Below the pieces are notes generated by a model. The model saw only the letters and a list, made by a program, of their open reading frames with translations, was not told the DNA's origin and did not search any database. Shown here one piece after another: positions 4,321 to 45,680 of a stretch of DNA of 45,680 nucleotides. The position numbers and the translations under genes are program-made. The stretch covers positions 1 to 45,680 of the forward strand of contig JAZDID010000120.1 in NCBI GenBank assembly GCA_043805315.1, written 5' to 3'. How positions within the stretch are numbered: the stretch's first letter is position 1; every line of letters begins with the position of its first letter. This stretch comes from Nanobdellota archaeon. Its GTDB lineage: Archaea > Nanobdellota > Nanobdellia > Woesearchaeales > JAHJEM01.

Positions 4321-4620
4321 AATGGCTCATGCAAGATATCGTCGGCATTGCTTAAAAGTTTTAGCAGCCATTTCTCGACGACAAAATGCGGCATTTTCTG
4401 AAGTGTGAACACCTCTCTGCACAAAAACACCCCTCCAATTTCTATTTGTTAAATGCTGTTATATGAAATATGTTATGCGCTGTTTTAATTTTGTTAGATG
4501 CTGTCATATAAATAGTTATACGCCATCGTTAACTGCTGTTTATTTATCAACCAACATATTTAGCAACCGATAGATTTATTAATCAATATATATAATAATC
4601 AATATATCTGATGAACAATA
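4321..4620. repeat. Left arm of a mirror-image repeat array (13-mer GTTRNNYGCTGTY x4, then CAACCAA/AATCAATATAT boxes)
   Basis: 13-mers at 4448-4460, 4472-4484, 4493-4505 and 4528-4540. TATTTATCAACCAACATAT (4541-4559) is the 17/19 reverse complement of 6544-6562. CTTAAAAGTTTTAG (4351-4364) is the 13/14 reverse complement of 6654-6667. The arm lies in a convergent gap between the gene ends at 4309 and 4704. Confidence 0.8.
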
Positions 4621-4671
4621 AATGAAATCTCTTAAAACCTTTAAGCATCTCTCATACTTTTTTGCCGACGA

Positions 4672-4699
4672 GAAAAAAGAAAAAATGATCCTAAAAAAG
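4672..4699 (-). terminator. Oligo-T tracts downstream of xerA (archaeal-type terminator candidate)
   Basis: Plus-strand A-runs at 4673-4678, 4681-4685 and 4693-4698 read as T5-T6 runs on the minus strand, immediately after the TAG stop at 4704-4706. Confidence 0.45.
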
Positions 4700-4703
4700 A
4701 ATT

Positions 4704-5516
4704 CTACAAACTGTCGAACGGGCTCTTGACCTTCTTCAATTCCTCACGCGAGATATGCGTGTAGATCTGCGTTGTCTGCAGGTTCGCATGGCCCAAGAGT
4801 TCCTGGATCATCCGGATGTCTGTTCCTGCCTCAAGCAAGTGGGTGGCAAAGCAGTGCCTGAGCGTGTGCGGCGTTACTTTCTTCTGGATGCCTGCCTTCT
4901 CTGCCGCGTGCTTGATGATCTTCTGCACATTCCTGGGTGTCAACGGCCTTCCTTCCTTGCCTGGAAAGAGAGATGCGGCCGGCTTGAGATCCTTCTTGTG
5001 CTCCACAAGCTCATGCAAGAGCGTTTCTGGCAGGATGAACATCCTGTCCTTTCCCCCTTTCCCTTTCCTGACCCAGCCGATCTTCTCTGAGGGCTCGATA
5101 TCTCCTGCCTTCAGCGATAACAGCTCAGAAATCCGCAAGCCAGAGGAATAGAGCAGTCTCAGCATCAGAGAGCTCTTCCTGTTGTTCAGTGCCCCGAAAA
5201 GCTTTTTCACATCCTCTTTCGAGAGTACCACAGGAAGCTTGCGTTCAATTTTAGGTGTCTTGAAATTGATGATCTCCTTTTTCAAGACATCAACATAGTA
5301 GAACTTCAATGACGCCTTAATAAGGGCAAGGCTCGAGTTCGCCATTCCCTTGTCTGAAAGCATATGCGCCAGATAGGATTTGATGTCCTGCTCTGTCACC
5401 TCTGCAGGCTGCTTCTTTGCAAAGCCCAGGAAGCGCTGGTTATGATAAAGATATGTTTGGACAGTCTTCTGACTAAAGCCCCTGAGTTTAAGCTCTGTGC
5501 TAAGATCTTCAAGCAT
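4704..5516 (-). CDS. xerA: Tyrosine recombinase, XerC/XerD/archaeal XerA type
   Basis: 270 aa. The N-terminus is a core-binding region. The catalytic domain carries GLRISEL, HTLRHCFATHLLEAGTDIRMIQELLGH and QIYTH (Tyr nucleophile). A minus-strand TATA (plus-strand TATAAAAA, 5539-5546) lies ~23 nt upstream of the ATG. Confidence 0.92.
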   Translation of the reverse strand: MLEDLSTELKLRGFSQKTVQTYLYHNQRFLGFAKKQPAEVTEQDIKSYLAHMLSDKGMANSSLALIKASLKFYYVDVLKKEIINFKTPKIERKLPVVLSKEDVKKLFGALNNRKSSLMLRLLYSSGLRISELLSLKAGDIEPSEKIGWVRKGKGGKDRMFILPETLLHELVEHKKDLKPAASLFPGKEGRPLTPRNVQKIIKHAAEKAGIQKKVTPHTLRHCFATHLLEAGTDIRMIQELLGHANLQTTQIYTHISREELKKVKSPFDSL

Positions 5517-5700
5517 GCCAGATTCCTGGAAACACCACTATAAAAAGGTTCGCATTTTAAAAAATTTTCAAAGTCATTAATTGATGGGATTTTGACTTAA
5601 AAGCCTGGCTTTGTACAAGAAATACTCCTTTCGAAGGCCAAACCCTATTAAACTCATTAAAATTTCTCGACGACAAAGCGATAAAAGTTCGTATAAGAAG

Positions 5701-5885
5701 TATTAGGCGAACAAGAAATTTATGGTTATTTCTGGAAGATTCTTGAAATAGTAATCTAAATAGGATCCCTTCCCCTTCTTCTTTTCCGGATTGTTCTCAC
5801 CTCAAACTTCCTCTAGCCGCTTCCTGTTTTGGAATGTCCCCACCCGCCGCCCCCGACCACCACCTAGAAACGTGTAATGCACTAC
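5701..5885 (+). repeat. C-rich intergenic repeat, copy A
   Basis: Contains TTAGGCGAACAAG, CTTTTCCGGATTG, GAATGTCCCCACCC (5832-5845) and CCCCCGACCACCACC (5850-5864). It is collinear with copies at 6653-6800 and 20503-20675. Confidence 0.75.
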
Positions 5886-6100: not shown

Positions 6101-6433
6101 TTATTTTTTGACTGTTTTTTTTGGCGCTTTTAAGTATGGCTGGAGGCCGTGCATGTATGTCCCGATGTGGGAATACGTCATCTTGAGCTCTTTCCTGCCC
6201 TCTTCAGTCAAACTATACACTTTCCTCCTGCCGAACCGCTTGTTCTGGACAAGCCTCAGTTTTCGAAGCTTTTTTAGGGTGGGATAGATCGTGCCGGGTG
6301 TGAGCTGGCTTCCTCTTCTGCTGCCGATTTTCTTGGCAAGATCTTCCCCGGAAAGGCCCTTCAGGCTGATCTCGTGCAAGATCAAAAACGACAAAAAACC
6401 CTTGAATTCCAGCTTCAGGGGGCCTGTCTTCAT
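6101..6433 (-). CDS. PadR-family winged-helix transcriptional regulator
   Basis: Motifs LSFLILHEISLKGLSGEDLAKKI...GTIYPTLKKLRKLRLV...YSLTEEGRKEL. The ORF run extends to 6457, but an AT-rich TATA-like box (6458-6470) abuts that ATG. The second ATG at 6433 (MKTGPL...) therefore fits a leaderless start. Confidence 0.85.
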   Translation of the reverse strand: MKTGPLKLEFKGFLSFLILHEISLKGLSGEDLAKKIGSRRGSQLTPGTIYPTLKKLRKLRLVQNKRFGRRKVYSLTEEGRKELKMTYSHIGTYMHGLQPYLKAPKKTVKK

Positions 6434-6463
6434 GCCTGTTTCTGGAGGAGAGGTCATTTAAAT

Positions 6464-6700
6464 ATTTATTGGTTGTAAAACATATAGATTGCCAGATGTG
6501 TAGATTGGTAAATTTATTGGTTGAACAATATATTGTATGATAGATATATTGGTTGATAAATAGATATATAACAGCGCTCAACAGAACAGCGTATGACATT
6601 TTTGGACAGCGTACAACAGAACAGCGCTCAACAATTCACGAATGGTGAGGGTTCTAAAACTTTTAGGCAAAACACGCAAACTCCGGACGAGAAATTATGA
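6464..6700. repeat. Right arm of the mirror-image repeat array (ATTGGTTG boxes, then AACAGCGCTCAAC-type 13-mers)
   Basis: ATTGGTTG at 6468-6475, 6516-6523 and 6548-6555. ATATATTGGTTGATAAATA at 6544-6562. 13-mers at 6570, 6585, 6605 and 6620. CTAAAACTTTTAGG at 6654-6667. The motif order is the reverse complement of 4321-4620. Confidence 0.8.
6570..6632 (+). promoter_or_regulatory. Four tandem 13-mer boxes (AACAGCGCTCAAC x2 exact, AACAGCGTATGAC, GACAGCGTACAAC); candidate protein-binding sites
   Basis: Boxes start at 6570, 6585, 6605 and 6620 (spacing 15/20/15 nt), upstream of padR on the opposite strand. The exact 13-mer recurs at 32969 and 32999. Confidence 0.6.
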
Positions 6701-6847: not shown

Positions 6848-7408
6848 TTACGTGCATATCTCCTTGGCAATGGCCTCGTTGATCCGGAGGATGTTCTGCT
6901 TTGCCTGGACCATCTTGAAATGCTGCTCGAGGAGATAGATATGTTCATCAGTGTGGAGCTCTTTGATGAGCGGGATGCCCTTGGAGATCATGTTCTCCAC
7001 ATATTCCTGCACCATCTGCTCAGTGAAGCCGAGGCGCTTCGCGATCTGGCGCACTGTGACTCGTTCGCCTGCATAGATGACCATGAACACCTCCTGCTCG
7101 CGGTGGGTCAGCTCGATCCGTGCAGAAACTGTCTTCTTGATCCGCTCAGGAAGGAGCATCATCTCGATCGCGTCCAGGCGCTCAGAGAGCTTGTCGATCT
7201 TTCCCTCAATCTCAGCCAGGTACTCGTAGTTCTGCTGGATCTCAGAGGTGTTCTGGTTGATCGTGTCCAGGTGCTCGTCAAGCTCTTCCTTGATAGTTGA
7301 GAGGGATTCCCTGAACTGAGAACCGAGCTTCTCGACTTCTTGACGTACATCTATGTCTTTCAGCAAAAATACTTCACCCCAACTGGAAAATGCTATGCAA
7401 CAGCTCAT
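6848..7408 (-). CDS. Coiled-coil protein with C-terminal HTH (LuxR/GerE-like) domain, putative regulator
   Basis: N-terminal heptad-like charged region. The C-terminus ELTHREQEVFMVIYAGERVTVRQIAKRLGFTEQMVQEYVENMISKG resembles an LT-x-RE-x-EV ... HTH module. The start is uncertain because a TATA-like box abuts ATG 7408. Confidence 0.6.
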   Translation of the reverse strand: MSCCIAFSSWGEVFLLKDIDVRQEVEKLGSQFRESLSTIKEELDEHLDTINQNTSEIQQNYEYLAEIEGKIDKLSERLDAIEMMLLPERIKKTVSARIELTHREQEVFMVIYAGERVTVRQIAKRLGFTEQMVQEYVENMISKGIPLIKELHTDEHIYLLEQHFKMVQAKQNILRINEAIAKEICT

Positions 7409-20502: not shown

Positions 20503-20675
20503 GTTTGGCGAACGAGCCCATCCGCAAACTTTTCTGGATTGCGCCCACCCTCCACACTCTCCAGCCACTTATTCTGATTGTCCCCACCCTCTATCATTGA
20601 ACAAGTTCAATGGAGTTTGAGCCAAGCTCAAACCTCCCCCAACCACCACCCTGGGATGTGCAACGTAATACTTCG
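20503..20675 (+). repeat. C-rich intergenic repeat, copy C, with a 46-nt double-palindrome insertion
   Basis: Contains TTTGGCGAACGAG, CTTTTCTGGATTG, GATTGTCCCCACCC (20576-20589) and CCCCCAACCACCACC (20636-20650). The last two blocks are separated by 20590-20635, which holds the palindromes CATTGAACAAGTTCAATG (20595-20612) and GTTTGAGCCAAGCTCAAAC (20615-20633). Confidence 0.75.
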
Positions 20676-21099
20676 ACACTGTTGGCAGTCAGCTGGGCTC
20701 AACAGTCGGTTGTCTTCATGCCCCCACCGCTGCCCAAGATAGATTCAGTCGCATAAAAATAGATTATCAGAAATTGATCCAAAAAGATTGATCCCAAAAT
20801 GAAAAATTTTATATACGAAACTACATTCCCCTTTACTGAAACGGGGGGGTTTCGTGGGTGAATTTTATCAGTTGAAGAGAACATGCGTTTGTCAGAGAGA
20901 TGTCGATATGCCGCCGTGTTCTCTTCGAATTCCGCATTTTTCATTGCAGAATCAGCATGAATTAACCACTTATTCATGATACGGAAATGTTTATATACAC
21001 TGAGGATATCCCTTTGAAACTATCGTTAATTTATGTAGGGGTTGATATATTTTTCGAGGGTGCGAGGATTATCTCTCGGGATCATCCATAACATTCTCG

Positions 21100-21858: not shown

Positions 21859-21953
21859 GCTCAACAAAGCAAGAAAAAAGACAACAGGCTCAACAACACA
21901 AAAAAGGCAGCGGCAAAACGTTACACTCATAAGGAAATCACGAGGCATCAATC

Positions 21954-27900: not shown

Positions 27901-30900
27901 GGATCGATATCCAAGATTTGACCTTCTTCAAGGTCAAGCAGACGCTGCCACATGTCACCCTCCTGCTCATCCTCGACGGGATAGACAAGGAGTTCCTTGA
28001 TAACAACCTGCAGAACATGCCCAACCTTGCGCAGCTCATCAACGACAACCCGATACTGGATGCGAGCGTGCTCACGCCATTCCCAGGCACCACGATGTCG
28101 ACCCAGGCAGCCATGTTCACGGGAGTCAAGCCCAAGACCCATCATGTCATCGGGGATAACTTCAAGGCAAGCCAGGCATATTATTTCATGCCTGAATCAG
28201 GCGGCAGTCCCAATGATGCAGATGAGGTGAACAACGTCCTGCAATCCCCTCCCCTTTCAACGGTGTTCGATTCCTTGACCACTGCCAAGAGGAGCAAGGC
28301 AGGCATCCCCGCCATCATCCGGAAGGGCATCCAGGGCAACAGGCCAGACCACAACCCGGCCATCACTATTGATTTCTCCACAGGCACTGTCGATGAGTCA
28401 GACCGTACCCAATATCTCCAGGACCTCAAGAATAATGATGACCAGCCTGGAAATGACGTCGCCGAGCTCGTTGTGGCGTACCTGCTCACACACGACCACG
28501 GGATCAGCGACAATCCCACTGCATCAGGCCTCCACCTTGCAGCGCTCGACCAGAAGATCGGAGACATCATCCAGAAGCTCAAAGACAACAACATCTACAA
28601 TGACACCATCTTCATCATTACCTCAGACCATGGCTTAGTGGATACGATCAAGGATGACAACCACAGCCTTTCATTCTCAGACATCCCTGCATTGGACAAT
28701 CCTCAAGGCATTGCGCTCAATCCGCTGTTCCCGAACGGCAGGGTCGCATATTCTGATGACGGTCTCGATGCTGCAAAAGTGTACTATAACAATTCCGTGG
28801 TGAACATGGACAGCCCGTGGTACCAAGCCATCTCGCGGGTCATTGTCAAGCAAGGAGGAGCCTATTATGACTATAGTTTCAATGGGATGCAAGACGTCCT
28901 CACCCCTGCGACCGACCAATTCCTCGAAGACATGACGTACGGCACGAGCCCGAACATGATACTCATCGCATCGCCGGACTACTACTTCCAGACTCCTCAA
29001 GAAGCCATCTCCGGTGACCAAGAGATCGTGCCTTTCCTCATCACCGGGCCAGGCTTTGGCCTTTTTAGCAGGGGGAACAATAACATCCCAGGACAACTCG
29101 AGGCGGTCGATGTCGCTCCGACACTAGCCTTCTTCACAGGAGGACAAGAGGCAGTTGACCTCATGAGCGGCATTGATGGCGAGAATTTTTATGATCCAGC
29201 ACTCGTCATCCAAGGGGGGTCTCCAGTGGACTTCCATCTGTACGACAGCCTGGGAAGGCACGTCGGGCCCGACGAGTTCGGCAACATCGAGGTGCAGATT
29301 CCGAGCGCAGACTACAGCATAGATCCTGAGACTGGCAAGATCACCATCAGCCTCCTCCAGGCCCCGGACACCTACCTGCTCGATGTCGACAGCTATGGCT
29401 GGGGTAAGTTCGGCCTCTCGGTCAGGAAGAAGACAGGCAATGAGACCTTTGATCTCACTTTCCCGCGCACATCCATCTCGCCAAATTCTTTTGCAAACCT
29501 TGACCTCTCTACCATGGAGTTCCGACTGGACTTTGAGGGTGACGGGACATTTGAACGCATGATAGACCCTCCGGAATCCATCATCATTGTTCAGGATGAG
29601 CAGAACAACAGGGCAACGGCACGCATCCTCACGCTCGCTGCACGAGAGCCTGCGAGCATGGACTTGAGCAGGGCAACCGGCGTCATATTCGATGTGAAGA
29701 ACAAGCAGGGAATCACTGACGGGCAGATCGATGTGCAGCGGTTTTCTGACCAAAGTCTCACCCAAACAGGGTTCTACACCTTCGGAAATTATGTGGTGGT
29801 CAACATCAGCGACAACGTGCTCACGAATGCGAAGTTCACCAAGCTCACGATCATCTATCCAGAGTACCTGCTCTTTCAGAACAACCTCTCTGAGAAATCA
29901 CTTGCGGTCTATGACAAGCAGACCGGACAAAGATTCCTGTCAAGCGTCGATGGGGAAAAGAACAGAGTGACTGTCTTGATCAACAGTTCAGGAGAATACT
30001 TGCTGGCGAGCACAGACCTCATTCCGATGATGGATGATATCACCGTCACTCCGCAGGCGACTAACATCATCAATGCCCCGGTGCAGGTCTCTGTGAAGAT
30101 CAGCGATGACAGCCTGATCACTGGGGCTAACGTGACCCTGGGGAACAGGACAGAGCCTTTAGTGTTCAATAGCGGGTCAGGACGGTATGAGGCAGTCATC
30201 ACCGGGCCAGACATCTCAGCGACCTATCCTGTCTTCATCACAGCCCAGGACGACACCGAGAACATCGTGATGCGGCAGGCAGAGTTCAAGCTTGATCTCG
30301 ATGCCCCAGTCATCAGGATCCTCTCACCCCGGAACATTTCTTACACGACAAACAGGATCATGTTATCGTTCTTCACTGATGAAGTCGCTGACCTCTCACT
30401 TTCGATTGATGGATCTCCTTCAACACCGCTTAACAGCACCGCATCATTCAAGATCAATACGCTCCAGCTCACGCTTCCTGGAGGCAACCACTCCCTGACC
30501 ATTAACGCATCAGACGTGTTTGCCAACAATGGCATAAAAACAGTCTCGTTCGAAGTGGAGAAGGAGAATGTCCTGCTCTCTGACCTGGAAGTGCCGATGT
30601 TCGAGAAGCCTGGCATCCCAGTCCCGATACAGGCTGTCGCGGCGAATACCATGATGGATCCGGAACAGAATGTGCTGGCCCAGCTCTTGCTCAATGGCAA
30701 TGTGAGCCAGCAGACAGCGCTCAACATCTCGGGAGAATCGAGTGTGAATGTCTCGTTCCTCATCACGCCGCCTGAAGGGAGGTACACGCTCACGCTCAAA
30801 CTGCTCCCATTGCCAGAAGAGCGGGTGATTTTGGATAATGAGCTCTCGCAAGAGATCCTTATCACGAGCAAGATCCCGGTCCTAATCATCGCTGATGACC

Positions 30901-32778: not shown

Positions 32779-35700
32779 ATGAAACGGGAAGGAAAAAAAG
32801 GAGAGAAAATGGATACGGCACAACAGCAGAGCCGCCTCTGGCGGCACAAGAGTCTTACGGCGAAAAAGCCGGGCTTCATGCAGGCTCAGGCGCTCCAGCC
32901 AGGCAGGAGACTCCTTCCCGCTGCCGGCCAGGGCACTCGACCTAGCGACAGCTCTCGCCTCCGAACAAAACAGCGCTCAACTACCTGCTGTTCAACTAAA
33001 CAGCGCTCAACATATGCCTTCCTCATGGGTGCGCTCCTCTTCGTGTTCGCCTTCTCAATGGTGCACGGCGCATTTGCAGCGCAGCTTCCCCTGCCGATCG
33101 ACGCGGCAACAAAGGCAGGCTTGCCCTCGTTTGTGCTCAACTCCTCAGACCTCATCGGAGACAGGGGAGAATATGCAAACCCCTCTGTTGCTGACCTGGA
33201 TGCTGACGGCGATTATGACATCGTGCTCGGCCTGAACAATGGCCTGCTCGAGTGGTGGAGAAATGACGGAAGCAATACCGCGCCGCTCTGGGTCTTGGCC
33301 AACGGCAGCATGATAGGAGATTACGCTGACCAATCCTCTCCGACCCTGACAGACTTTGACAACGATGGAGACTTTGACCTTTTCGTGGGCTACGGCAACA
33401 GCTACCTCTATTATTTCCAAAACACAGGCACTCCCCAGGCTCCCAGCTTCACCTATGTCAGGCGCATGCTGAGCGTAGGAAGCAATGCCATGCCTGAGGC
33501 GATAGATTACAACAAGGACGGGAATGTGGACATGTACTACGGCCGAGAAAACCCCAACATATACAAGCTCAAGAATGACGTCGGAGAGAGCGGCTTTGAC
33601 TTCAACCACTTCTACTTCCCCGACGTGGGCTCTTACTCGTCAGTATTCCTCGCTGATGTAGACGCTGACGGAGATTTTGATGCCTTCATCGGCGGGAATG
33701 ACGGCAATGTCTGGCTGTTCAAGAATCTTGGAGGATCATCGCCAAATGTTTTCGGCACAGCGAACAAGGATTACTTTGACTCGGGAACCGTGTTGTTTGA
33801 TGTTGGCAGCAGGGCAGACCCTACATTAGCAGACCTTGATGCTGACGGAGACCTTGACCTGCTCATCGGCAAGAGCGACGGCACGTTCACCTACTACAGG
33901 AATGACGGCACAGCGCGCAACGCATTCTGGACCCTCGTGCCCAATTACCTGACCGCAGATGCAGGAGACAATGCAGCGGCGACGCTCGCGGACCTGGACA
34001 ATGACGCAGACCTTGACCTGGTCATCGGGAACAATGCAGGATTCATATCCTATTATGTCAATGAGGGAACTCCTCAGGACGCAAACTTTGTCCTTTCTGG
34101 AAGCAGCCTTGTCGGAGACGTGGGCACTGACGCGAATCCAGAGCTGCGAGACCTTGATAATGACGGGAAATATGACCTTGCAGTCGGCAGGAGCGATGGG
34201 ATCATCCTCTTCTACAGAAACACCGGCACGCCAATCTCCGCCACCTTCACTGCTGCAGGAAATGTGCTTGACGACTACATCGACTATACAACGCCGAGCT
34301 TCGCAGACCTTGACGGGGACGGCGACCTTGACCTCGCAACCGGGGCAGGAGACATCGGCGGATGGGTCTCCCTGATAGAGAACACCGGAAGCCTGACCAA
34401 TTTCAGCTTCTCCAACAAGAACACCTTCTGGTTCGACAATACCGGGAGGGGAAGGACTCCTGACTTCGCAGACTTTGACAAGGACGGAGACCAGGACATG
34501 GTCATCGGACAGGAAGATGGCTATGTTTATTATTTCCGGAATGACGGGACTGCCCAAAAGCCATCCTGGGCAAGCGCGCGTGACTGGATAGGCGACTGGG
34601 GCAGTTGGACATCCCCTTCCTTCGGAGACCTGAACAATGACGGCGAGATTGACTTCATCTTGGGCGGGAGCGATTTCAATGTCTTCTACTACTTCAAGAA
34701 TGACGTCTTGGAAAGCGGGTTCAACTTTGTACAGAACACCTCAGACCTCATCGGCGACATCGGCAGCTATGCAGACCCCAAGTTCGCAGACATGGACGCT
34801 GACGGCGATTTCGACCTCTTCATTGGCACGGTAGATGGCAGGGTACGCTACTACAAAAATATCGGCAGCGCGCAAGTGCCTATTTTTGTCTCTCAAGCAG
34901 ATCCCATACCAGACCAGGGAGACTGGACTTCAATCACAACAGGAGACCTTGACGCAGATGAGGATTTAGACCTCCTCCTTGGAACATACAATGACCAGTA
35001 TGTGCGCTATTACAGAAATACTGGCAACGCAACCAACTTCAACTTTGTCCAGGCATCGACCAACCTGCTGAACAGCTACTGCAGGCCAGGAGACGGCAAC
35101 TCCAGGTGCACCCCAGAGCTTGTTGATCTTGACAATGACGGAGATCTCGATTTGCTCGTTTCGCTCTGGAATGGCTATACAAGATATTGGCGAAATGACG
35201 GCACTCCTACAATTGCTGTCTGGTCTGACCAGGGAGATATCATTGGAAACATTGGCACCGGTGGCAAACCAACTGTTGCTGACCTTGATTATGATGGAGA
35301 CAAAGATGTCCTGCTCGGCAGGTCTGACGGCATGACATTCTATTATAAGAACACAGGCAGCGCGACAAGCCCGAGCTTCACCTCTATTTATGCAGGTCCA
35401 GGAGGCTCCCAGTATTTACCTAATCAGGGAAACTACGCAAAGCCAGCATTCGCAGACCTCAACAATGACGGCAACATTGACGTGGCAGTCGGATTGGAGT
35501 CCGGCCTGACAGCATTATACTTCAACCAGGGCCATTGGCAGACCAGCCAGCAGAAAGGAGATAACCCCACCTGGATATACCAGGACAGCAACCTCTTCGA
35601 CGCTATTTGCGAGCCGAACCAGGGCACAGGCTACTGCAACGGGGAGCTTGTGGACATTGACAATGATGGAGACCTCGATGTGGTCGGCGGTAATTACTAT

Positions 35701-43900: not shown

Positions 43901-45680
43901 AACAGAGAACAACAGGAGGTACACGGCAGTATTCTCGCCTGACTTCAACAGCAACCAGGGCCAGAACTTCACCTATTATATTACTGCGCAGGACAACAGG
44001 GCGAACACGAACAGGACAGAGGACTTCATTGATTACATCGACCCGATCAATGACCCTCCCGCAGTCACGATTGCCAGGCCAGACAACCAGACCTCATTCA
44101 ACCTGCAGGGTCAGGTCATCTGGAACGTTTTTGACGAGGACAATGACCCCACGATTTCATCACTCTACTACAGGACACGTGCGAGCAGCTCGCTGACCTC
44201 GGCTGCGGGGTCATACATGTTCATCACTACCACTGCAATCAATGAGACAACTTTCCTCTGGAACACTTCAGGCATCAGCCAAGGCCATTACCAGCTCAAG
44301 ATCAATGCATCTGACGGCGCAGCGCAAGGAGAGCAGGAGTCCGCAATATTCACCATAGACCACACGCCGCCAGCAGGAGTGACCCTGGTCTCGCCGATCA
44401 ATGGCACCACGACGAACCAAGAGCCAGTGCAGTTCAGGTTCAACACCTCGGACAACCTCGCAGCTACTCTCGCCTGCGACCTCTTCATCGACGGATTTAT
44501 GGGGGTCGTAAACATCTCTGCCCAGAACAGCACGCAGAAGGTGCAGAATGTACCTGGCATTCCTGAGGGAGCGCATAGCTGGTCTGTGGTGTGCAGGGAT
44601 CTCGCAGGCCTGAGTGCGGCGAGCCTGACAGAGCAGTTCTCAGTCGACAGGACCAGGCCGACCATCATGCTCCAAGAGCCCGTGCCTGCCGCAGTCTTCA
44701 GCCAGCCGAACATCATCTTCAACTTCACTGCAACCGACAATGTCGATAGCCTGTTGGACTGCGCCCTGCTCATCAACGGAGGCCAGAAGGGCAGCATAAC
44801 AGCGCTCAACAATACCTTCACGAGCATCATGGCTACATCGCTCAACAGCCAGGTGCACAACTGGCAGGTGCGCTGCACAGACGAGGCAGCGAACGGGAAC
44901 ACTACTGAGTCCAGGATCCTCAATATCCAGACAGACCTCAGCATCGCATCCAGCGACATCACCTTCTCTCCAGAGACGCCGACGCAGGGCACAAGCACGA
45001 CAGCCAATGCGACCATCCGCAACCTGGGCATAGCCAATGCGAGCAGCGTGCTTGTGGAGTTCTATGACCAGTTCAATGTGCTGAAAGGCAGCAGGACCGT
45101 GAACGTGCCTGCGCTCGGAAGTGCGACTGCAAGCATCACCTGGAGCCTGGCAGGCTACAGCCCTGGAGAGCATCCCTTGCAGGCCATCATCCAGCAGGGC
45201 CCCTACCTGGACAGCAACCTCGCGAACAACGAGGCGGGCAAGAACATCACGATCATCCTTGACCAGGATGCACCGGTCTTCTCACAAATCCTCACGACTC
45301 CACGAAATATCACCGAACACACGCTGAGCGCAAGCTTTGATGTCAACATCACGGACACTGGTGTCGGAATCGATCCGAGCTCGGTTCTCCTGAATTATTC
45401 CGTCGGCGCAATCTCAGGATCTAAAGCGATGACTCTTGTTTCAGGCAACACCTATCGTGCTGTCTTGAACAGGAGCGATATAGACTTTGACGCCCTGCAG
45501 GGAAACACGCTGTCATTCCTGGCTGCAGCGCGCGACCTGAATGGAAATGCAGGGACATCACTGCTGCAGCAGGAGTACATCGATCCGGTGAATGATGCGC
45601 CGAACATCACGATCTTCCTGCCGGACGCGAGCTCGCAGTGGGGAGGCGTGCAGACCATCCTCTTCAATGTCGACAATGAC
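37965..45680 (+). CDS. Giant surface protein, 5'-complete and 3'-truncated by the window end (more than 2570 aa); Ig-like PNGGE modules, FN3, discoidin, cadherin-like and CARDB domains
   Basis: This ORF is not in the supplied ORF track.
- Frame 0 has no stop that I found when reading by eye from the TGA at 37851-37853 to nt 45680, and the track lists no frame-0 ORF there.
- Candidate starts: TTG 37965 (AGGAGAGGT 8 nt upstream, 8-nt overlap with the previous gene), ATG 37872, ATG 38070.
- Signal peptide: KRGRGKQGKSLFSAGALLLLLLLLSLLMAGLALAA.
- FN3 domains: 39538-39810 and 40514-40790.
- Discoidin-like domain: 41610-41975.
- Three ~100-aa cadherin-like repeats: 42225-43125.
- CARDB-like domains: 43401-43720 and 44934-45255. 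Confidence 0.9.
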   Translation, partial: MDRQTLEGKRGRGKQGKSLFSAGALLLLLLLLSLLMAGLALAATRKPIVHPITLPPQVQVLFPNNGENITTRTLNVSWNAFDPDGDVVTLNIFVDRNSDPADGSIQVASSEPNDGWYILDLLPLALPEDYYYIRVDAVADIERVTDYADLPFYKGGFAVNYSSGQYQASVLLVQQPEITVSPDLAPLGRGIYPIRFTVRDPNHESLFGTFYYSSSPGQRQNLISQNIPLSNICTDPDGDTATANNCTLYWNTTLNANVSIDIVATNTHLEGNASTPLVQFDNNPEVQVLFPNGGEELTDRYVTASWTAGDVANFSVLIDLYYDDDATAFNGRTLIASAEPNDGFYVWDLHTVQAGDYYLSIDARSSGVDSSGNPITVSSTDYSNALFRKRGFNESFTSVFVSNNYTVTVNEAPAVEVTSPNGGETINGTQSVQFNVSDLQGDFLAASIYYSTVPGAKENLIGANISLNSTYCADPDGTTSTENSCAYSWDTLGLNGNYYLDILVSDSILTGFDSSDASFTVNNYPRIMNLTVSNVTDQSSLISWQTPDEDTNATVRYGLDQNLTQQTSTLSVGRIQVILLQNLVGNKVYYFSALSCDATGLCTSSSIRNFTTLDNRPALAVLSPNGGEVFTTSQVNITWNATDPDQDPITLDVYYDTDNLSVNGRNLISSGEVNDGWLVWNIQNLNNGNYFVSIDANTTSLTEGPVIVQDYSDNSFEKSDISLVYTSNAYQADVLKNAPVSIVIGVNDTEPLEDNVTISFNLTDLEDQFLTVSLFYSSAPGLKEYALFTDLIINASFCAVVQQHSQGGASYGCEVVIDSDSINGDFYLDLEADDSIHTSLNSSSLLAFNNPPHFMNIQVLDIDTHTVQVSWQTAELTNASISYGLSQNYTDRAADSNPLLNQSLVLANLTGNRRYHFMITSCDTSGKCTSTQDMNFTTLNNLPIVQVIYPNGGEQIDQQVLNIQWSAVDEDLDPATLDIFYDVDANTANGRFLIAANQQNNGSYTWDLSGLQPGPYYISIDAKSQDLRQGQVTVTDYSDGRFTKGQFGNTFTSNSYNVTVFKNTNPFGNITSPTLFSILVRNTTINFTVHDNEGDGLYASIYYGGEIFRRQLIVTNPRNTPLISYPVSAVIDTKTLIEQHKLRPDAVELKIIVDGIEEQLFIESGLNTNATVVWFSVSLQPGQTRNDIYLLYGAAASLAMERSEPDWTRFLPSLNVLANKPILSFSSEAVGFPAANSNDNNTATKWRGTGSSDFIRYNLTGLHNPSMVKFTAGSGTNHSRARFSLDNANFTVINETTFWTGTVQNISFRPIEMRYLLIDQITSTTQSDIFEIELFTPLLIQAAIGAESAGSKVPIVLGLDLSNPATCTDPDGSTTTPNNCSYFWDMSQLDGEFCIRLETTDLISETAVHEVCNITIDNINDYPLLVIPVLNQRWEVNTELINAFDLDDYFRDPNNDTLTFNVTGNSIITVGIDPFTHLVSFSQPQNFTGKEFVTFIADDGYRGITASNLVELFVTPTKPNISGLPDQFLLEDSPIGFSVDLWNYSSDQEMNLSQLSYAVVSQTNASLINCVITGGHFATCLAPRANASGESIVNVSVSDSTSFDYDYFSITVIEINDAPDIANLPDKTILEDQDPPDNWIDLWNYTQDVEDPDSSLAFTITSQTNTGLISCDIASNRFVNCSSPSPTQSGFSDVSVQATDTGNLTDADTFRVTVIPVDNMPVITLLEPVNGYSTIDFTLNFSYTVTDIDDTWFLCDLIIDSIVQVNDRNVSNGTVALETVSNLSAGMHTWRARCTDRSNTALSENRSFSIFTDLEITTADITFSDELPLQGDTINITAIVRNLGRVDALNVPVAFFLNTIRFSTQLVSIPQNNSRSITIPFNTGPFTGNNTILVKVNENATIQETNLDNNNASKALFITQDIFPPAYDGLVQLPANITEQTGSVNISVNVTDRGSGVNPTTVRLIYTLGIGVPQVVGMSTENNRRYTAVFSPDFNSNQGQNFTYYITAQDNRANTNRTEDFIDYIDPINDPPAVTIARPDNQTSFNLQGQVIWNVFDEDNDPTISSLYYRTRASSSLTSAAGSYMFITTTAINETTFLWNTSGISQGHYQLKINASDGAAQGEQESAIFTIDHTPPAGVTLVSPINGTTTNQEPVQFRFNTSDNLAATLACDLFIDGFMGVVNISAQNSTQKVQNVPGIPEGAHSWSVVCRDLAGLSAASLTEQFSVDRTRPTIMLQEPVPAAVFSQPNIIFNFTATDNVDSLLDCALLINGGQKGSITALNNTFTSIMATSLNSQVHNWQVRCTDEAANGNTTESRILNIQTDLSIASSDITFSPETPTQGTSTTANATIRNLGIANASSVLVEFYDQFNVLKGSRTVNVPALGSATASITWSLAGYSPGEHPLQAIIQQGPYLDSNLANNEAGKNITIILDQDAPVFSQILTTPRNITEHTLSASFDVNITDTGVGIDPSSVLLNYSVGAISGSKAMTLVSGNTYRAVLNRSDIDFDALQGNTLSFLAAARDLNGNAGTSLLQQEYIDPVNDAPNITIFLPDASSQWGGVQTILFNVDND
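38128..41050 (+). repeat. Four tandem super-repeats of the form [PNGGE Ig-like module - second Ig-like module with C-x-DPDG...C - (FN3)]
   Basis: Module starts:
- VQVLFPNNGE at 38128
- VQVLFPNGGE at 38815
- VTSPNGGE at ~39212
- LSPNGGE at 39820
- IYPNGGE at 40795
The 23-mer AGGTCCAGGTCCTGTTCCCGAAC is identical at ~38135 and ~38817. Confidence 0.8.

What the first reader, a model, noticed from the sequence alone, without database searches (positions are those of the whole stretch)
6570..6632. 13-mer box AACAGCGCTCAAC shared between the padR upstream array and the 5' regions of the giant surface-protein genes
Exact copies occur at 6570-6582, 6620-6632, 32969-32981 and 32999-33011, and degenerate copies at 6585 and 6605. 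Four reverse-orientation variants lie at 4448-4540. The core GCTCAACAA also appears twice, 29 nt apart, between the lipoprotein gene and the 3592-aa gene (21859-21867 and 21888-21896). The second of those is preceded by ACAACAG, as at 6614-6620.

Four exact copies of a 13-mer in 45.7 kb is far beyond chance. The roughly 30-nt pair spacing at both giant-gene loci suggests a dimeric DNA-binding factor. The adjacent PadR protein or the HTH protein at 6848-7408 are the obvious candidates, which would couple a regulator to the surface-protein island.
Basis: seen in the sequence. Interest (0 to 1): 0.62.

Follow-up and report, generated by a model that had tools for sequence, protein, structure and literature searches.

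The report
Shared 13-mer box beside dif-xerA
A 13-base DNA word really is repeated far beyond chance in this tiny (DPANN) archaeon, but it is a lineage-specific variant of conserved repeat boxes that frame the chromosome-resolution locus (padR, dif, xerA), and its copies in the giant surface-protein genes lie inside coding sequence and are not conserved, so a PadR-to-surface-protein regulon is not supported.

Summary
There are 15 hits at up to 2 mismatches against 1.2 expected.

The locus is chromosomal. The order HTH-padR-(small variable ORFs)-dif-xerA is conserved in all seven relatives that extend far enough. It is bracketed by two mirror-image arrays. I identified the clade's dif site; the window's copy is 5686-5713. 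xerA is a true XerA.

The 13-mers belong to a box family, RACAGCGYAYRAC. One pair of these boxes is conserved upstream of padR in three related genomes. The exact variant ("X box") is a window-specific addition on each side of that pair.

The giant-gene copies are not promoter sites. All lie inside coding sequence and all are on the sense strand. They are absent from two orthologous clusters. The upstream GCTCAACAA cores are not conserved in an 88%-identical relative.

Even so, X-like words are about 7-fold over a codon-aware expectation, so a DNA- or RNA-level link exists and remains unexplained.

Best reading: the boxes are protein-binding sites of the padR-dif-xerA module, and the giant-gene copies are secondary.

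The parts
6570..6582 (+). X box (exact AACAGCGCTCAAC), the padR-proximal one of the two X boxes flanking the conserved box pair in the right arm
   Evidence: window-specific addition relative to L001/L003/L004
6585..6617 (+). ancestral box pair AACAGCGTATGAC (6585) and GACAGCGTACAAC (6605), family RACAGCGYAYRAC
   Evidence: aligns with the box pairs of L001, L003 and L004; GCTGT and ACG columns invariant
6620..6632 (+). X box (exact), outermost box of the right arm; 6614-6641 matches 44792-44823 over 16+7 nt
4448..4540 (-). left-arm array of five boxes (4448, 4472, 4493, 4515, 4528) in mirror orientation; none is the X variant
4501..4526 (+). dif-like pseudo-site built from two left-arm boxes: CTGTCATATAA ATAG TTATACGCCAT (4-nt spacer)
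   Evidence: top full-site score in the window with a PWM built from relatives' dif arms
6464..6569 (-). right-arm inner array of AT-rich boxes (CAACCAATAWAT, about 16-nt period) reaching the padR start; contains the padR promoter
   Evidence: this tier is conserved in all relatives
4541..4623 (+). left-arm inner array of AT-rich boxes, mirror image of 6464-6569
   Evidence: I1-I5, D1, D16
5686..5713 (+). dif site AGTTCGTATAA GAAGTA TTAGGCGAACA (11-6-11)
   Evidence: its left arm is the best half-site of 91,340 positions with a leave-one-out PWM; orthologous to sites upstream of xerA in 7 relatives
4704..5516 (-). xerA tyrosine recombinase
   Evidence: NF040815 XerA equivalog 267 bits (cutoff 220); PDB 4a8e E=8e-50; Pfam
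6101..6457 (-). padR-family gene (short, about 110-118 aa)
   Evidence: Pfam PF03551; PDB PadR hits; 60-77% identical homologues in Woese/Nanoarchaeota MAGs
6848..7408 (-). coiled-coil + winged-HTH protein, usually just upstream of padR in relatives
32964..33011 (+). lineage-specific in-frame segment of the FG-GAP gene (TKQRSTTCCSTKQRST) holding X boxes at 32969 and 32999 (frame 1, KQRST)
44798..44846 (+). X box (exact, ITALN, uses rare ATA) and near-copy TACATCGCTCAAC at 44834, inside the third giant gene
30713..30725 (+). 1-mismatch copy GACAGCGCTCAAC (QTALN) inside the 3592-aa gene
21859..21896 (+). two GCTCAACAA cores in the A-rich leader of the 3592-aa gene; the second equals the array word with 6 nt missing
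   Evidence: not conserved in L038

Best explanation
The 13-mer is one lineage-specific variant (X box) of a family of 13-bp boxes, RACAGCGYAYRAC. These boxes form the outer tier of two mirror-image repeat arrays. The arrays bracket a conserved chromosomal module of this DPANN clade: HTH gene, padR, a slot for small variable ORFs, the chromosome-resolution site dif, and xerA.

Shown:
- The module and its dif site.
- The conserved box pair upstream of padR.
- That the X boxes are recent additions on each side of that pair.
- That the giant-gene copies are intragenic, sense-strand only and not conserved.

Inferred:
- The boxes are tandem, head-to-tail binding sites for a protein encoded in the module. 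The most likely binder is the PadR-like protein, acting as an array binder in the manner of StbA or AspA. XerA is the alternative, because some boxes resemble dif half-sites. The complex would regulate or structure the padR-dif-xerA region.
- The X copies in the surface-protein genes are secondary. They arose by short-patch copying between similar short sequences, filtered by what the reading frames tolerate. They are not operators of a conserved surface-protein regulon.
For: The module is chromosomal and conserved.
- padR and xerA are neighbours in all 7 relatives that extend far enough, next to the housekeeping genes uppS, rpoL, CBS and a nucleotidyltransferase.
- No relative of PadR was found in viral contigs.
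- xerA passes the XerA equivalog cutoff.

The dif site is identified.
- An 11-6-11 site lies between the TATA box and the xerA start in every relative.
- It is the top full-site hit in each locus. The window's 5686 left arm ranks 1 of 91,340 positions.

The arrays are conserved.
- The same order occurs in window, L001, L003 and L004: E2 element, box pair, AT-rich boxes, padR.
- Mirror arms occur downstream of xerA in window, L001, L033 and L034, and further along beyond two ORFs in L035, where xerA is inverted.

Some boxes resemble dif half-sites.
- Three of the 8 best half-site hits in the window lie in the left arm. One L001 box ranks 10th of 24,628 positions.

There is precedent.
- PadR-like HTH proteins StbA and AspA bind arrays or centromeres upstream of their own genes.

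The X boxes are recent.
- They are absent from relatives' arrays, and the FG-GAP stretch has no counterpart in the orthologues.
- Similarity extends beyond the 13-mer: 16+7 nt at 44792-44823, and 16 nt around a 6-nt gap at 21881-21896.
Against: - No binding data exist, and the binder is undecided.
- The main X variant scores poorly as a dif half-site (top 3%). A k-mer sharing test between dif and the arrays is only marginal (Fisher chi-square 16.2 on 8 df, which I read as p about 0.04).
- The 13-mer tier is absent from L033, L034, L035 and L037, so it is not essential to the module.
- The mirror arms lie between convergent genes. That fits a structural role but not a simple operator.
- Secondary copying does not by itself explain several facts. 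X-like words are about 7-fold over a codon-aware expectation. All are on the sense strand. Five in-frame sites all use ACA NCG CTC AAC. A function at the DNA or RNA level is therefore not excluded.
Confidence: 0.42

Rival explanations
1. First reader's regulon. A dimeric transcription factor (PadR or the 186-aa HTH protein) binds X boxes at its own promoter and at the giant surface-protein genes, and co-regulates them.
For: - The X variant is shared between the padR array and the giant cluster far beyond chance.
- Pairs occur 29, 30 and 36 nt apart at three places.
- Partial cores lie in the leader of the first giant gene.
Against: - All strong copies are inside coding sequence, up to 8.8 kb from a start codon, and all are in the sense orientation (11 to 0).
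- The FG-GAP pair lies after a conserved start codon, in the second gene of a tightly spaced cluster.
- No boxes occur in orthologous clusters L005 and L006.
- The leader cores are not conserved at 88% overall identity.
- Other array variants are not dispersed.
Confidence: 0.13
2. The boxes are isolated XerA half-sites, mimics of one dif arm. Arrayed on both flanks of dif-xerA, they load, titrate or stall XerA or SMC-type complexes around the resolution site, in the way XerD-binding sites (XDS) act in the Bacillus subtilis terminus.
For: - Boxes and dif arms share the inner CGYAYRA.
- ATGGCGTATAA (window) and ATGTCGTTTAA (L001) rank 4th and 10th in their loci with a dif-arm PWM.
- Two left-arm boxes form a dif-like site with a 4-nt spacer.
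- L003 shares TTGTACGC between a dif arm and a box.
- dif-flanking DNA forms domain boundaries in Thermococcus kodakarensis.
Against: - Most boxes, including X, score only in the top 0.4-16%.
- The combined k-mer test gives only chi-square 16.2 on 8 df (about p 0.04).
- Arm positions 2-4 differ consistently: TGT or GTT in dif arms, CAG in boxes.
Confidence: 0.2
3. Strand-specific nucleic-acid signal. Inward transcription through both arms would yield RNAs carrying the antisense boxes. These would pair with the sense X boxes in giant-gene mRNAs. A related version has a factor reading the non-template strand.
For: - All 11 genic copies are sense, and the one CGCTCAAC on the minus strand lies in a minus-strand secreted-protein gene.
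- Complementarity of 16+7 nt exists between 6614-6641 and 44792-44823.
- The array strands are unstructured (z about +1.4).
Against: - No RNA data exist and there is no Rfam match.
- The only co-sampled relative pair (L003/L005) shows no such matches.
- Only one variant has partners.
Confidence: 0.07
4. Coincidence driven by coding. The giant genes are rich in T-x-L-N and S/T-L-N peptides near N-glycosylation sequons. Codon-pair bias creates ACA NCG CTC AAC, and the array variant merely happens to match.
For: - In-frame copies all encode T-x-L-N or T-x-F-N.
- An NCG-CTC codon-pair preference exists: 41 of 188, against about 27 expected if independent (my arithmetic from the counts).
- Other 8-mers from repeated peptides are also 20-39-fold enriched.
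Against: - The expected number of exact copies is 0.017-0.019 against 3 observed. At up to 2 mismatches it is 1.5 against 11.
- The FG-GAP copies are in another frame.
- The 44798 copy uses the rare ATA codon and extends to a 16-mer plus a 7-mer match.
Confidence: 0.08

Closest known systems
Single-recombinase Xer modules with an adjacent dif site: XerS/difSL, XerH/difH, and the haloarchaeal dif upstream of the xerA operon
   Same: - One Xer-family recombinase with its 11-6-11 site immediately upstream of its own gene.
- Central regions TGTATA, TATACA or TATACC.
- L035 shares 16 nt with E. coli dif (the E. coli sequence is from my own knowledge).
- The L033 right arm matches the right arm of the T. 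kodakarensis dif at 10 of 11 positions.
   Different: - Here the module also holds padR and a slot of variable small ORFs, and is framed by mirror-image repeat arrays.
- In the window, dif lies 170 nt from xerA and is inverted relative to L034.
- No recombination has been shown.
StbA/stbS of plasmid R388 and AspA of pNOB8 (PadR-like centromere-binding and repressor proteins)
   Same: - A small PadR-like HTH protein with arrays of short direct repeats and 2-bp spacers upstream of its own gene, arranged in two sets.
- Extra small repeat clusters elsewhere.
   Different: - The repeats here are 13 bp (15-nt period) plus a second AT-rich tier (16-nt period).
- The two sets are inverted and 1.9 kb apart.
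- The setting is chromosomal and beside dif-xerA.
- The extra copies are intragenic, not at promoters.
- No partner NTPase is seen.
XerD-binding sites (XDS) of the Bacillus subtilis terminus, and the TrmBL2-dependent boundary at T. kodakarensis dif
   Same: - Half-dif-like or AT-rich DNA flanking the resolution site.
- It acts structurally rather than as a crossover site.
   Different: - The similarity of the boxes to dif arms is only partial.
- There are no chromosome-conformation or binding data.
ParB/parS-type centromere sites lying inside genes (own knowledge)
   Same: - A short DNA word kept at the DNA level within coding sequence.
- Clustered within tens of kb of the gene of its presumed binder.
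   Different: - parS is palindromic and conserved across species.
- X boxes are asymmetric, one-stranded in orientation and lineage-specific.

Membership tests
Archaeal XerA/dif chromosome-resolution module | Recombinase is a XerA orthologue | tested here: met
   NF040815 equivalog 267.2 bits against a cutoff of 220; P. abyssi XerA 4a8e E=8e-50
Archaeal XerA/dif chromosome-resolution module | 28-bp site: two imperfect inverted 11-bp arms and a 6-bp spacer, with AA-N6-TT inner ends | tested here: met
   5686-5713. Orthologous sites are the top full-site hit in all 7 relatives
Archaeal XerA/dif chromosome-resolution module | Unique site in the replication terminus; recombination by XerA | not testable with these tools
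Two further dif-like sites with odd spacers exist in the window
dif half-site (XerA arm) as the identity of the 13-mer | Box scores as a dif arm with a PWM built from independent dif sites | tested here: inconclusive
   Two atypical boxes rank 4th and 10th in their loci. The X box reaches only the top 3.3%. The k-mer test gives chi-square 16.2 on 8 df, about p 0.04
PadR autoregulatory operator | Site upstream of a PadR-family gene, conserved in orthologous loci | tested here: met
   The box pair is conserved at the same place in L001, L003 and L004. It is absent in L033-L035 and L037
PadR autoregulatory operator | Dyad-symmetric operator matching a PadR dimer | tested here: not met
   The boxes are direct repeats with a 14-15-nt period. 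They lie about 115-230 nt upstream of the start, beyond the AT-rich tier
Iteron or centromere-like array of a PadR-like DNA-binding protein (StbA/AspA type) | Tandem direct repeats with short fixed spacers, in two sets, next to the gene of the binder | tested here: met
   X-2-B-7-B-2-X on the right and five boxes on the left.
Iteron or centromere-like array of a PadR-like DNA-binding protein (StbA/AspA type) | Protein binds the repeats; role in segregation or repression | not testable with these tools
   No binding or genetic data
   Strong copies are all inside CDS. Only 9-nt cores lie in one leader
   Checked in L005, L006 and L038
Mobile element with terminal inverted repeats (transposon or integrated element carrying the recombinase) | Variable genomic location, high-identity ends, target duplication | tested here: not met
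   Fixed synteny in 7 relatives. The arms are only about 70-74% complementary. No viral relatives of PadR were found
Archaeal oriC with ORB boxes | orc1/cdc6 next to inverted ORB repeats around an AT-rich unwinding element | tested here: not met
   No orc1/cdc6 in the window or in any relative's locus. There is no turn in GC skew

The most novel reading that the evidence does not exclude
The X boxes and their parent box family could be centromere-like or boundary sites of a chromosome-organising system of DPANN archaea that has not been described. In this reading a PadR-like array-binding protein, possibly with XerA, nucleates on the mirror arrays around dif. It also contacts oriented copies of the same word kept at the DNA level inside neighbouring giant genes. 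This would tie dimer resolution to local chromosome folding or segregation. In the RNA version, array transcripts pair with giant-gene mRNAs.
Probability: 0.12. Interest if true: 0.75.

Novelty: new variant of a known kind. Interest (0 to 1): 0.42.

Why it matters
If the boxes are binding sites that structure a padR-dif-xerA module, this gives a testable handle on chromosome resolution and organisation in DPANN archaea. These organisms are uncultured, and I found no paper on their Xer/dif system.

The dif consensus derived here can locate the terminus, and Xer-linked cassette slots, in many Woese/Nanoarchaeota genomes.

The unexplained excess of one 13-mer on the sense strand of giant surface-protein genes is a small but clean puzzle. 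It points either to short-patch copying in a reduced genome or to a DNA/RNA-level signal. As a PadR surface-protein regulon, the finding would be ordinary, and it is not supported.

Tried and rejected
- Box-pair patterns in genome contigs and metagenome contigs returned only unrelated bacterial tandem repeats. The window's genome is in neither collection.
- Sequencing runs. Only two groundwater runs hold traces, and there was no coverage of the arrays or the FG-GAP 5' end, so inversion, polymorphism and transcription could not be tested.
- RNA genes. No Rfam family and no tRNA, and no stable fold of either array strand.
- Transposon or integrated element: rejected by conserved synteny and by the absence of PadR relatives in viral contigs.
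- oriC/ORB: rejected, with no orc1/cdc6 and no skew turn.
- Non-coding leader for the FG-GAP boxes: rejected. The start codon with GGAGG and an S-D-S-S-x-L-R motif are conserved upstream of the boxes.
- Simple 30-nt tandem duplication in FG-GAP: rejected, because only the boxes are identical.
- Covariation between dif arms and boxes: too weak to claim.
- Enrichment of L003-type boxes in L005: none found.

Full report
**Observation**

AACAGCGCTCAAC is exact at 6570, 6620, 32969 and 32999, as reported. It is also exact at 44798. At up to 2 mismatches there are 15 hits, against 1.21 +/- 1.07 (maximum 4) in 100 dinucleotide shuffles.

The degenerate copies at 6585 and 6605 are real, as are the two GCTCAACAA cores at 21859 and 21888. 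There are five reverse-orientation boxes, not four: 4448, 4472, 4493, 4515 and 4528.

**What the surroundings are**

The window is a whole 45.7-kb contig of a Woese/Nanoarchaeota-type (DPANN) MAG.

- The gene at 4704-5516 is a true XerA. It scores 267 bits against NCBIfam equivalog NF040815 (cutoff 220), and its best PDB match is P. abyssi XerA.
- 6101-6457 is a short PadR-family protein.
- 6848-7408 is a coiled-coil plus winged-HTH protein.
- Two imperfect mirror-image arms flank xerA and padR, at about 4348-4650 and 6464-6670.

I fetched loci around PadR homologues of 62-74% identity: L001/L002, L003, L004, L033, L034 and L035. In all of them padR and xerA are neighbours. Most loci also sit beside the housekeeping genes uppS, rpoL, a CBS protein and a nucleotidyltransferase. 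No relative of PadR occurs in viral contigs. This is therefore a conserved chromosomal module, not a mobile element.

**The dif site**

In every relative an 11-6-11 inverted repeat lies between a TATA box and the xerA start:

| Locus | Site |
|---|---|
| L003 | TTGTCCCACAA TGTAGA TTGTACGCCAA |
| L004 | CTGTCGTACAA TATACA TTGTAGGTCAC |
| L033 | TTGTCGTACAA TGTATA TTATATGACAC |
| L034 | AGTTCGCACAA TATACC TTGTGCGAACT |
| L035 | TGTTCGCATAA TGTATA TTACCCGAATA |
| L001 | CGGTCGCACAA TATACA TTGTCGGACAT |

The L033 right arm matches the right arm of the T. kodakarensis dif (TTTTGATATAATGTACCTTATATGACAA, PMC11840125) at 10 of 11 positions. L035 shares 16 nt with E. coli dif; the E. coli sequence is from my own knowledge.

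I built a leave-one-out matrix from these arms. With it, the site upstream of xerA is the top full-site hit in each relative. In the window, the left arm of 5686-5713 (AGTTCGTATAA GAAGTA TTAGGCGAACA) is the best of 91,340 positions.

A recombinase gene next to its own dif is known for XerS, for XerH and in haloarchaea. I found no paper on this for DPANN.

**Anatomy of the arms**

Read towards padR, the order is:

1. A terminator-like element, GCTAAAACnTTTAAGCAAYGC.
2. The 13-mer boxes.
3. An array of AT-rich boxes (CAAYCAATAWAT, about 16-nt period).
4. The padR promoter.

The AT-rich tier is present in all relatives. It recurs in mirror orientation on the far side of xerA: directly downstream, between convergent genes, in window, L033 and L034; downstream of xerA in L001; and further along in L035, where xerA is inverted.

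The 13-mer tier is patchy. A tandem pair, GTYRnRCGCTGTY-N1-GTYRnRCGCTGTC, is present in L001, L003 and L004. It is absent from L033, L034, L035 and L037.

In the alignment, the window's two degenerate boxes (6585 and 6605) are the ones that match this conserved pair. The two exact X boxes are extra, one on each side, each separated from its neighbour by 2 nt. X also departs from the family consensus RACAGCGYAYRAC at an otherwise constant A.

**Who binds the boxes?**

This cannot be decided here. Several points bear on it.

- The boxes are direct repeats, unlike the dyads typical of PadR dimers.
- PadR-like HTH proteins that bind arrays of direct repeats upstream of their own genes are known: StbA with stbS (two sets of five 9-bp repeats with 2-bp spacers) and AspA of pNOB8.
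- The boxes also share the inner CGYAYRA with dif arms.
- Three of the eight best dif-arm hits in the window lie in the left arm. Two boxes there form a dif-like site with a 4-nt spacer (4501-4526). One L001 box ranks 10th in its locus.
- Against XerA, the X box scores only in the top 3.3%, and a k-mer sharing test is marginal (Fisher chi-square 16.2 on 8 df, about p 0.04).

**The giant-gene copies**

*FG-GAP gene.* The start codon at 32779, with its GGAGG, is conserved in the orthologues L005 (55% identity) and L006 (53%). So is an S-D-S-S-x-L-R motif just before the boxes. The boxes are therefore coding, at codons 64-78 in frame 1 (KQRST). The 48-nt stretch that holds them (TKQRSTTCCSTKQRST) has no counterpart in either orthologue. 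Between conserved anchors the window is 9 codons longer.

*Other copies.* The remaining copies are in frame 2 and encode T-x-L-N or T-x-F-N (ITALN, QTALN, NTTLN, FTTLN, ATSLN, ATAFN). They lie 6.9-8.8 kb inside their genes.

*Orthologues.* L005 and L006 hold no ACANCGCTCAAC at all. L005 holds no boxes of the type found in the padR array from the same sample, L003.

*Leader cores.* The GCTCAACAA cores in the leader of the 3592-aa gene are changed in L038, a relative 88% identical across that region.

These results argue against a conserved promoter-level regulon.

**The link is nevertheless real**

I kept the three giant proteins fixed and resampled synonymous codons.

| Word | Expected | Observed |
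|---|---|---|
| Exact 13-mer | 0.017-0.019 | 3 |
| 13-mer, up to 2 mismatches (sense) | 1.5 | 11 |
| 13-mer, up to 2 mismatches (antisense) | 0.15 | 0 |
| CGCTCAAC | 1.0 | 10 |
| ACANCGCTCAAC | 0.13 | 7 |

Further points:

- A general NCG-CTC codon-pair preference explains only part of the excess: 41 of 188, against about 27 expected if the two codons were independent (my arithmetic from the counts).
- Only the X variant is dispersed. Other array variants give 0-3 background hits, apart from AACAGCGCATAAC, whose six hits include the three exact X sites.
- Similarity extends beyond the 13-mer. 44792-44823 matches 6614-6641 over 16+7 nt with a 4-nt gap. 21881-21896 equals the array word with 6 nt missing. 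FG-GAP copy 1 matches at 17 of 18 positions.
- The flanks are otherwise unrelated, so these are not recent long duplications.

**Reading**

The box family is a conserved cis-element of the padR-dif-xerA module and most likely a protein-binding array.

X is a young variant. It was added to the array and to the FG-GAP gene in this lineage, and it recurs in the giant genes. The simplest origin is short-patch copying between similar short sequences, kept only where the frame tolerates it.

This genome also carries other lineage-specific short repeats, noted by earlier readers and seen. The copying explanation is inferred, not shown.

The all-sense orientation and the codon-level excess leave room for a DNA- or RNA-level function. 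That could be centromere-like sites, a non-template-strand signal, or antisense pairing with array transcripts. No structured RNA is predicted or known here.

**Limits**

- The decisive genome-wide scan could not be run.
- Public reads do not cover the region.
- L003 and L005 share a sample but are not proven to be one genome.

**Context from earlier notes (leads only)**

Other DPANN genomes were reported to carry cassette arrays joined at dif-like sites beside xerA. Here, relatives hold variable small ORFs between padR and xerA. In L001, L003 and L004 the last of these is bracketed by a conserved half-site, TTTGTCG(C/T)ACAATC, and by dif. That fits the lead. The window's slot is empty.

Noticed in passing
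window 5686-5713; L001 8146, L003 6788, L004 2594, L033 4599, L034 8623, L035 8221: The clade's dif site lies directly upstream of xerA, between the TATA box and the start codon. In the window it is 170 nt away and inverted relative to L034, though both share the flank ATAAAAGTTCG.
   Followed up: yes
window 20746-20774: A third dif-like site, CAGTCGCATAA AAATAGA TTATCAGAAAT (7-nt spacer), lies about 70 nt from the third copy of the C-rich repeat (20503-20675). Another copy of that repeat abuts the true dif (5701-5885).
   Followed up: partly
L001 7525, L003 6331, L004 2138: A conserved isolated half-site, TTTGTCG(C/T)ACAATC, lies upstream of the last small ORF before xerA. That ORF is therefore bracketed by a half-site and dif, like a single gene cassette. 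The small ORFs between padR and xerA differ between relatives, and the window has none.
   Followed up: partly
window 4348-4369, 4633-4650, 6649-6670; many places in L034 and L035: The near-palindromic element GCTTAAAAGTTTTAGC sits a few to about 200 nt after stop codons. In L035 it is the only sequence between convergent padR and xerA. It looks like a bidirectional terminator or a 3'-end motif.
   Followed up: no
window 4370-4385 and 5662-5677: An exact 16-mer direct repeat, ATTTCTCGACGACAAA. The second copy lies 8 nt from dif. Inverted near-copies are at 4660-4675 and 6683-6697.
   Followed up: no
L035 7383-8177: In this relative xerA is inverted relative to padR (the genes converge), while dif stays upstream of xerA. 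The xerA-dif unit has flipped at least once in the clade.
   Followed up: no
window 21954-45680: In the giant genes, [S/T/A/P]-L-N tripeptides use NCG CTC AAC in 10 of 15 cases. The same dipeptides not followed by N do so in 31 of 173 cases.
   Followed up: partly
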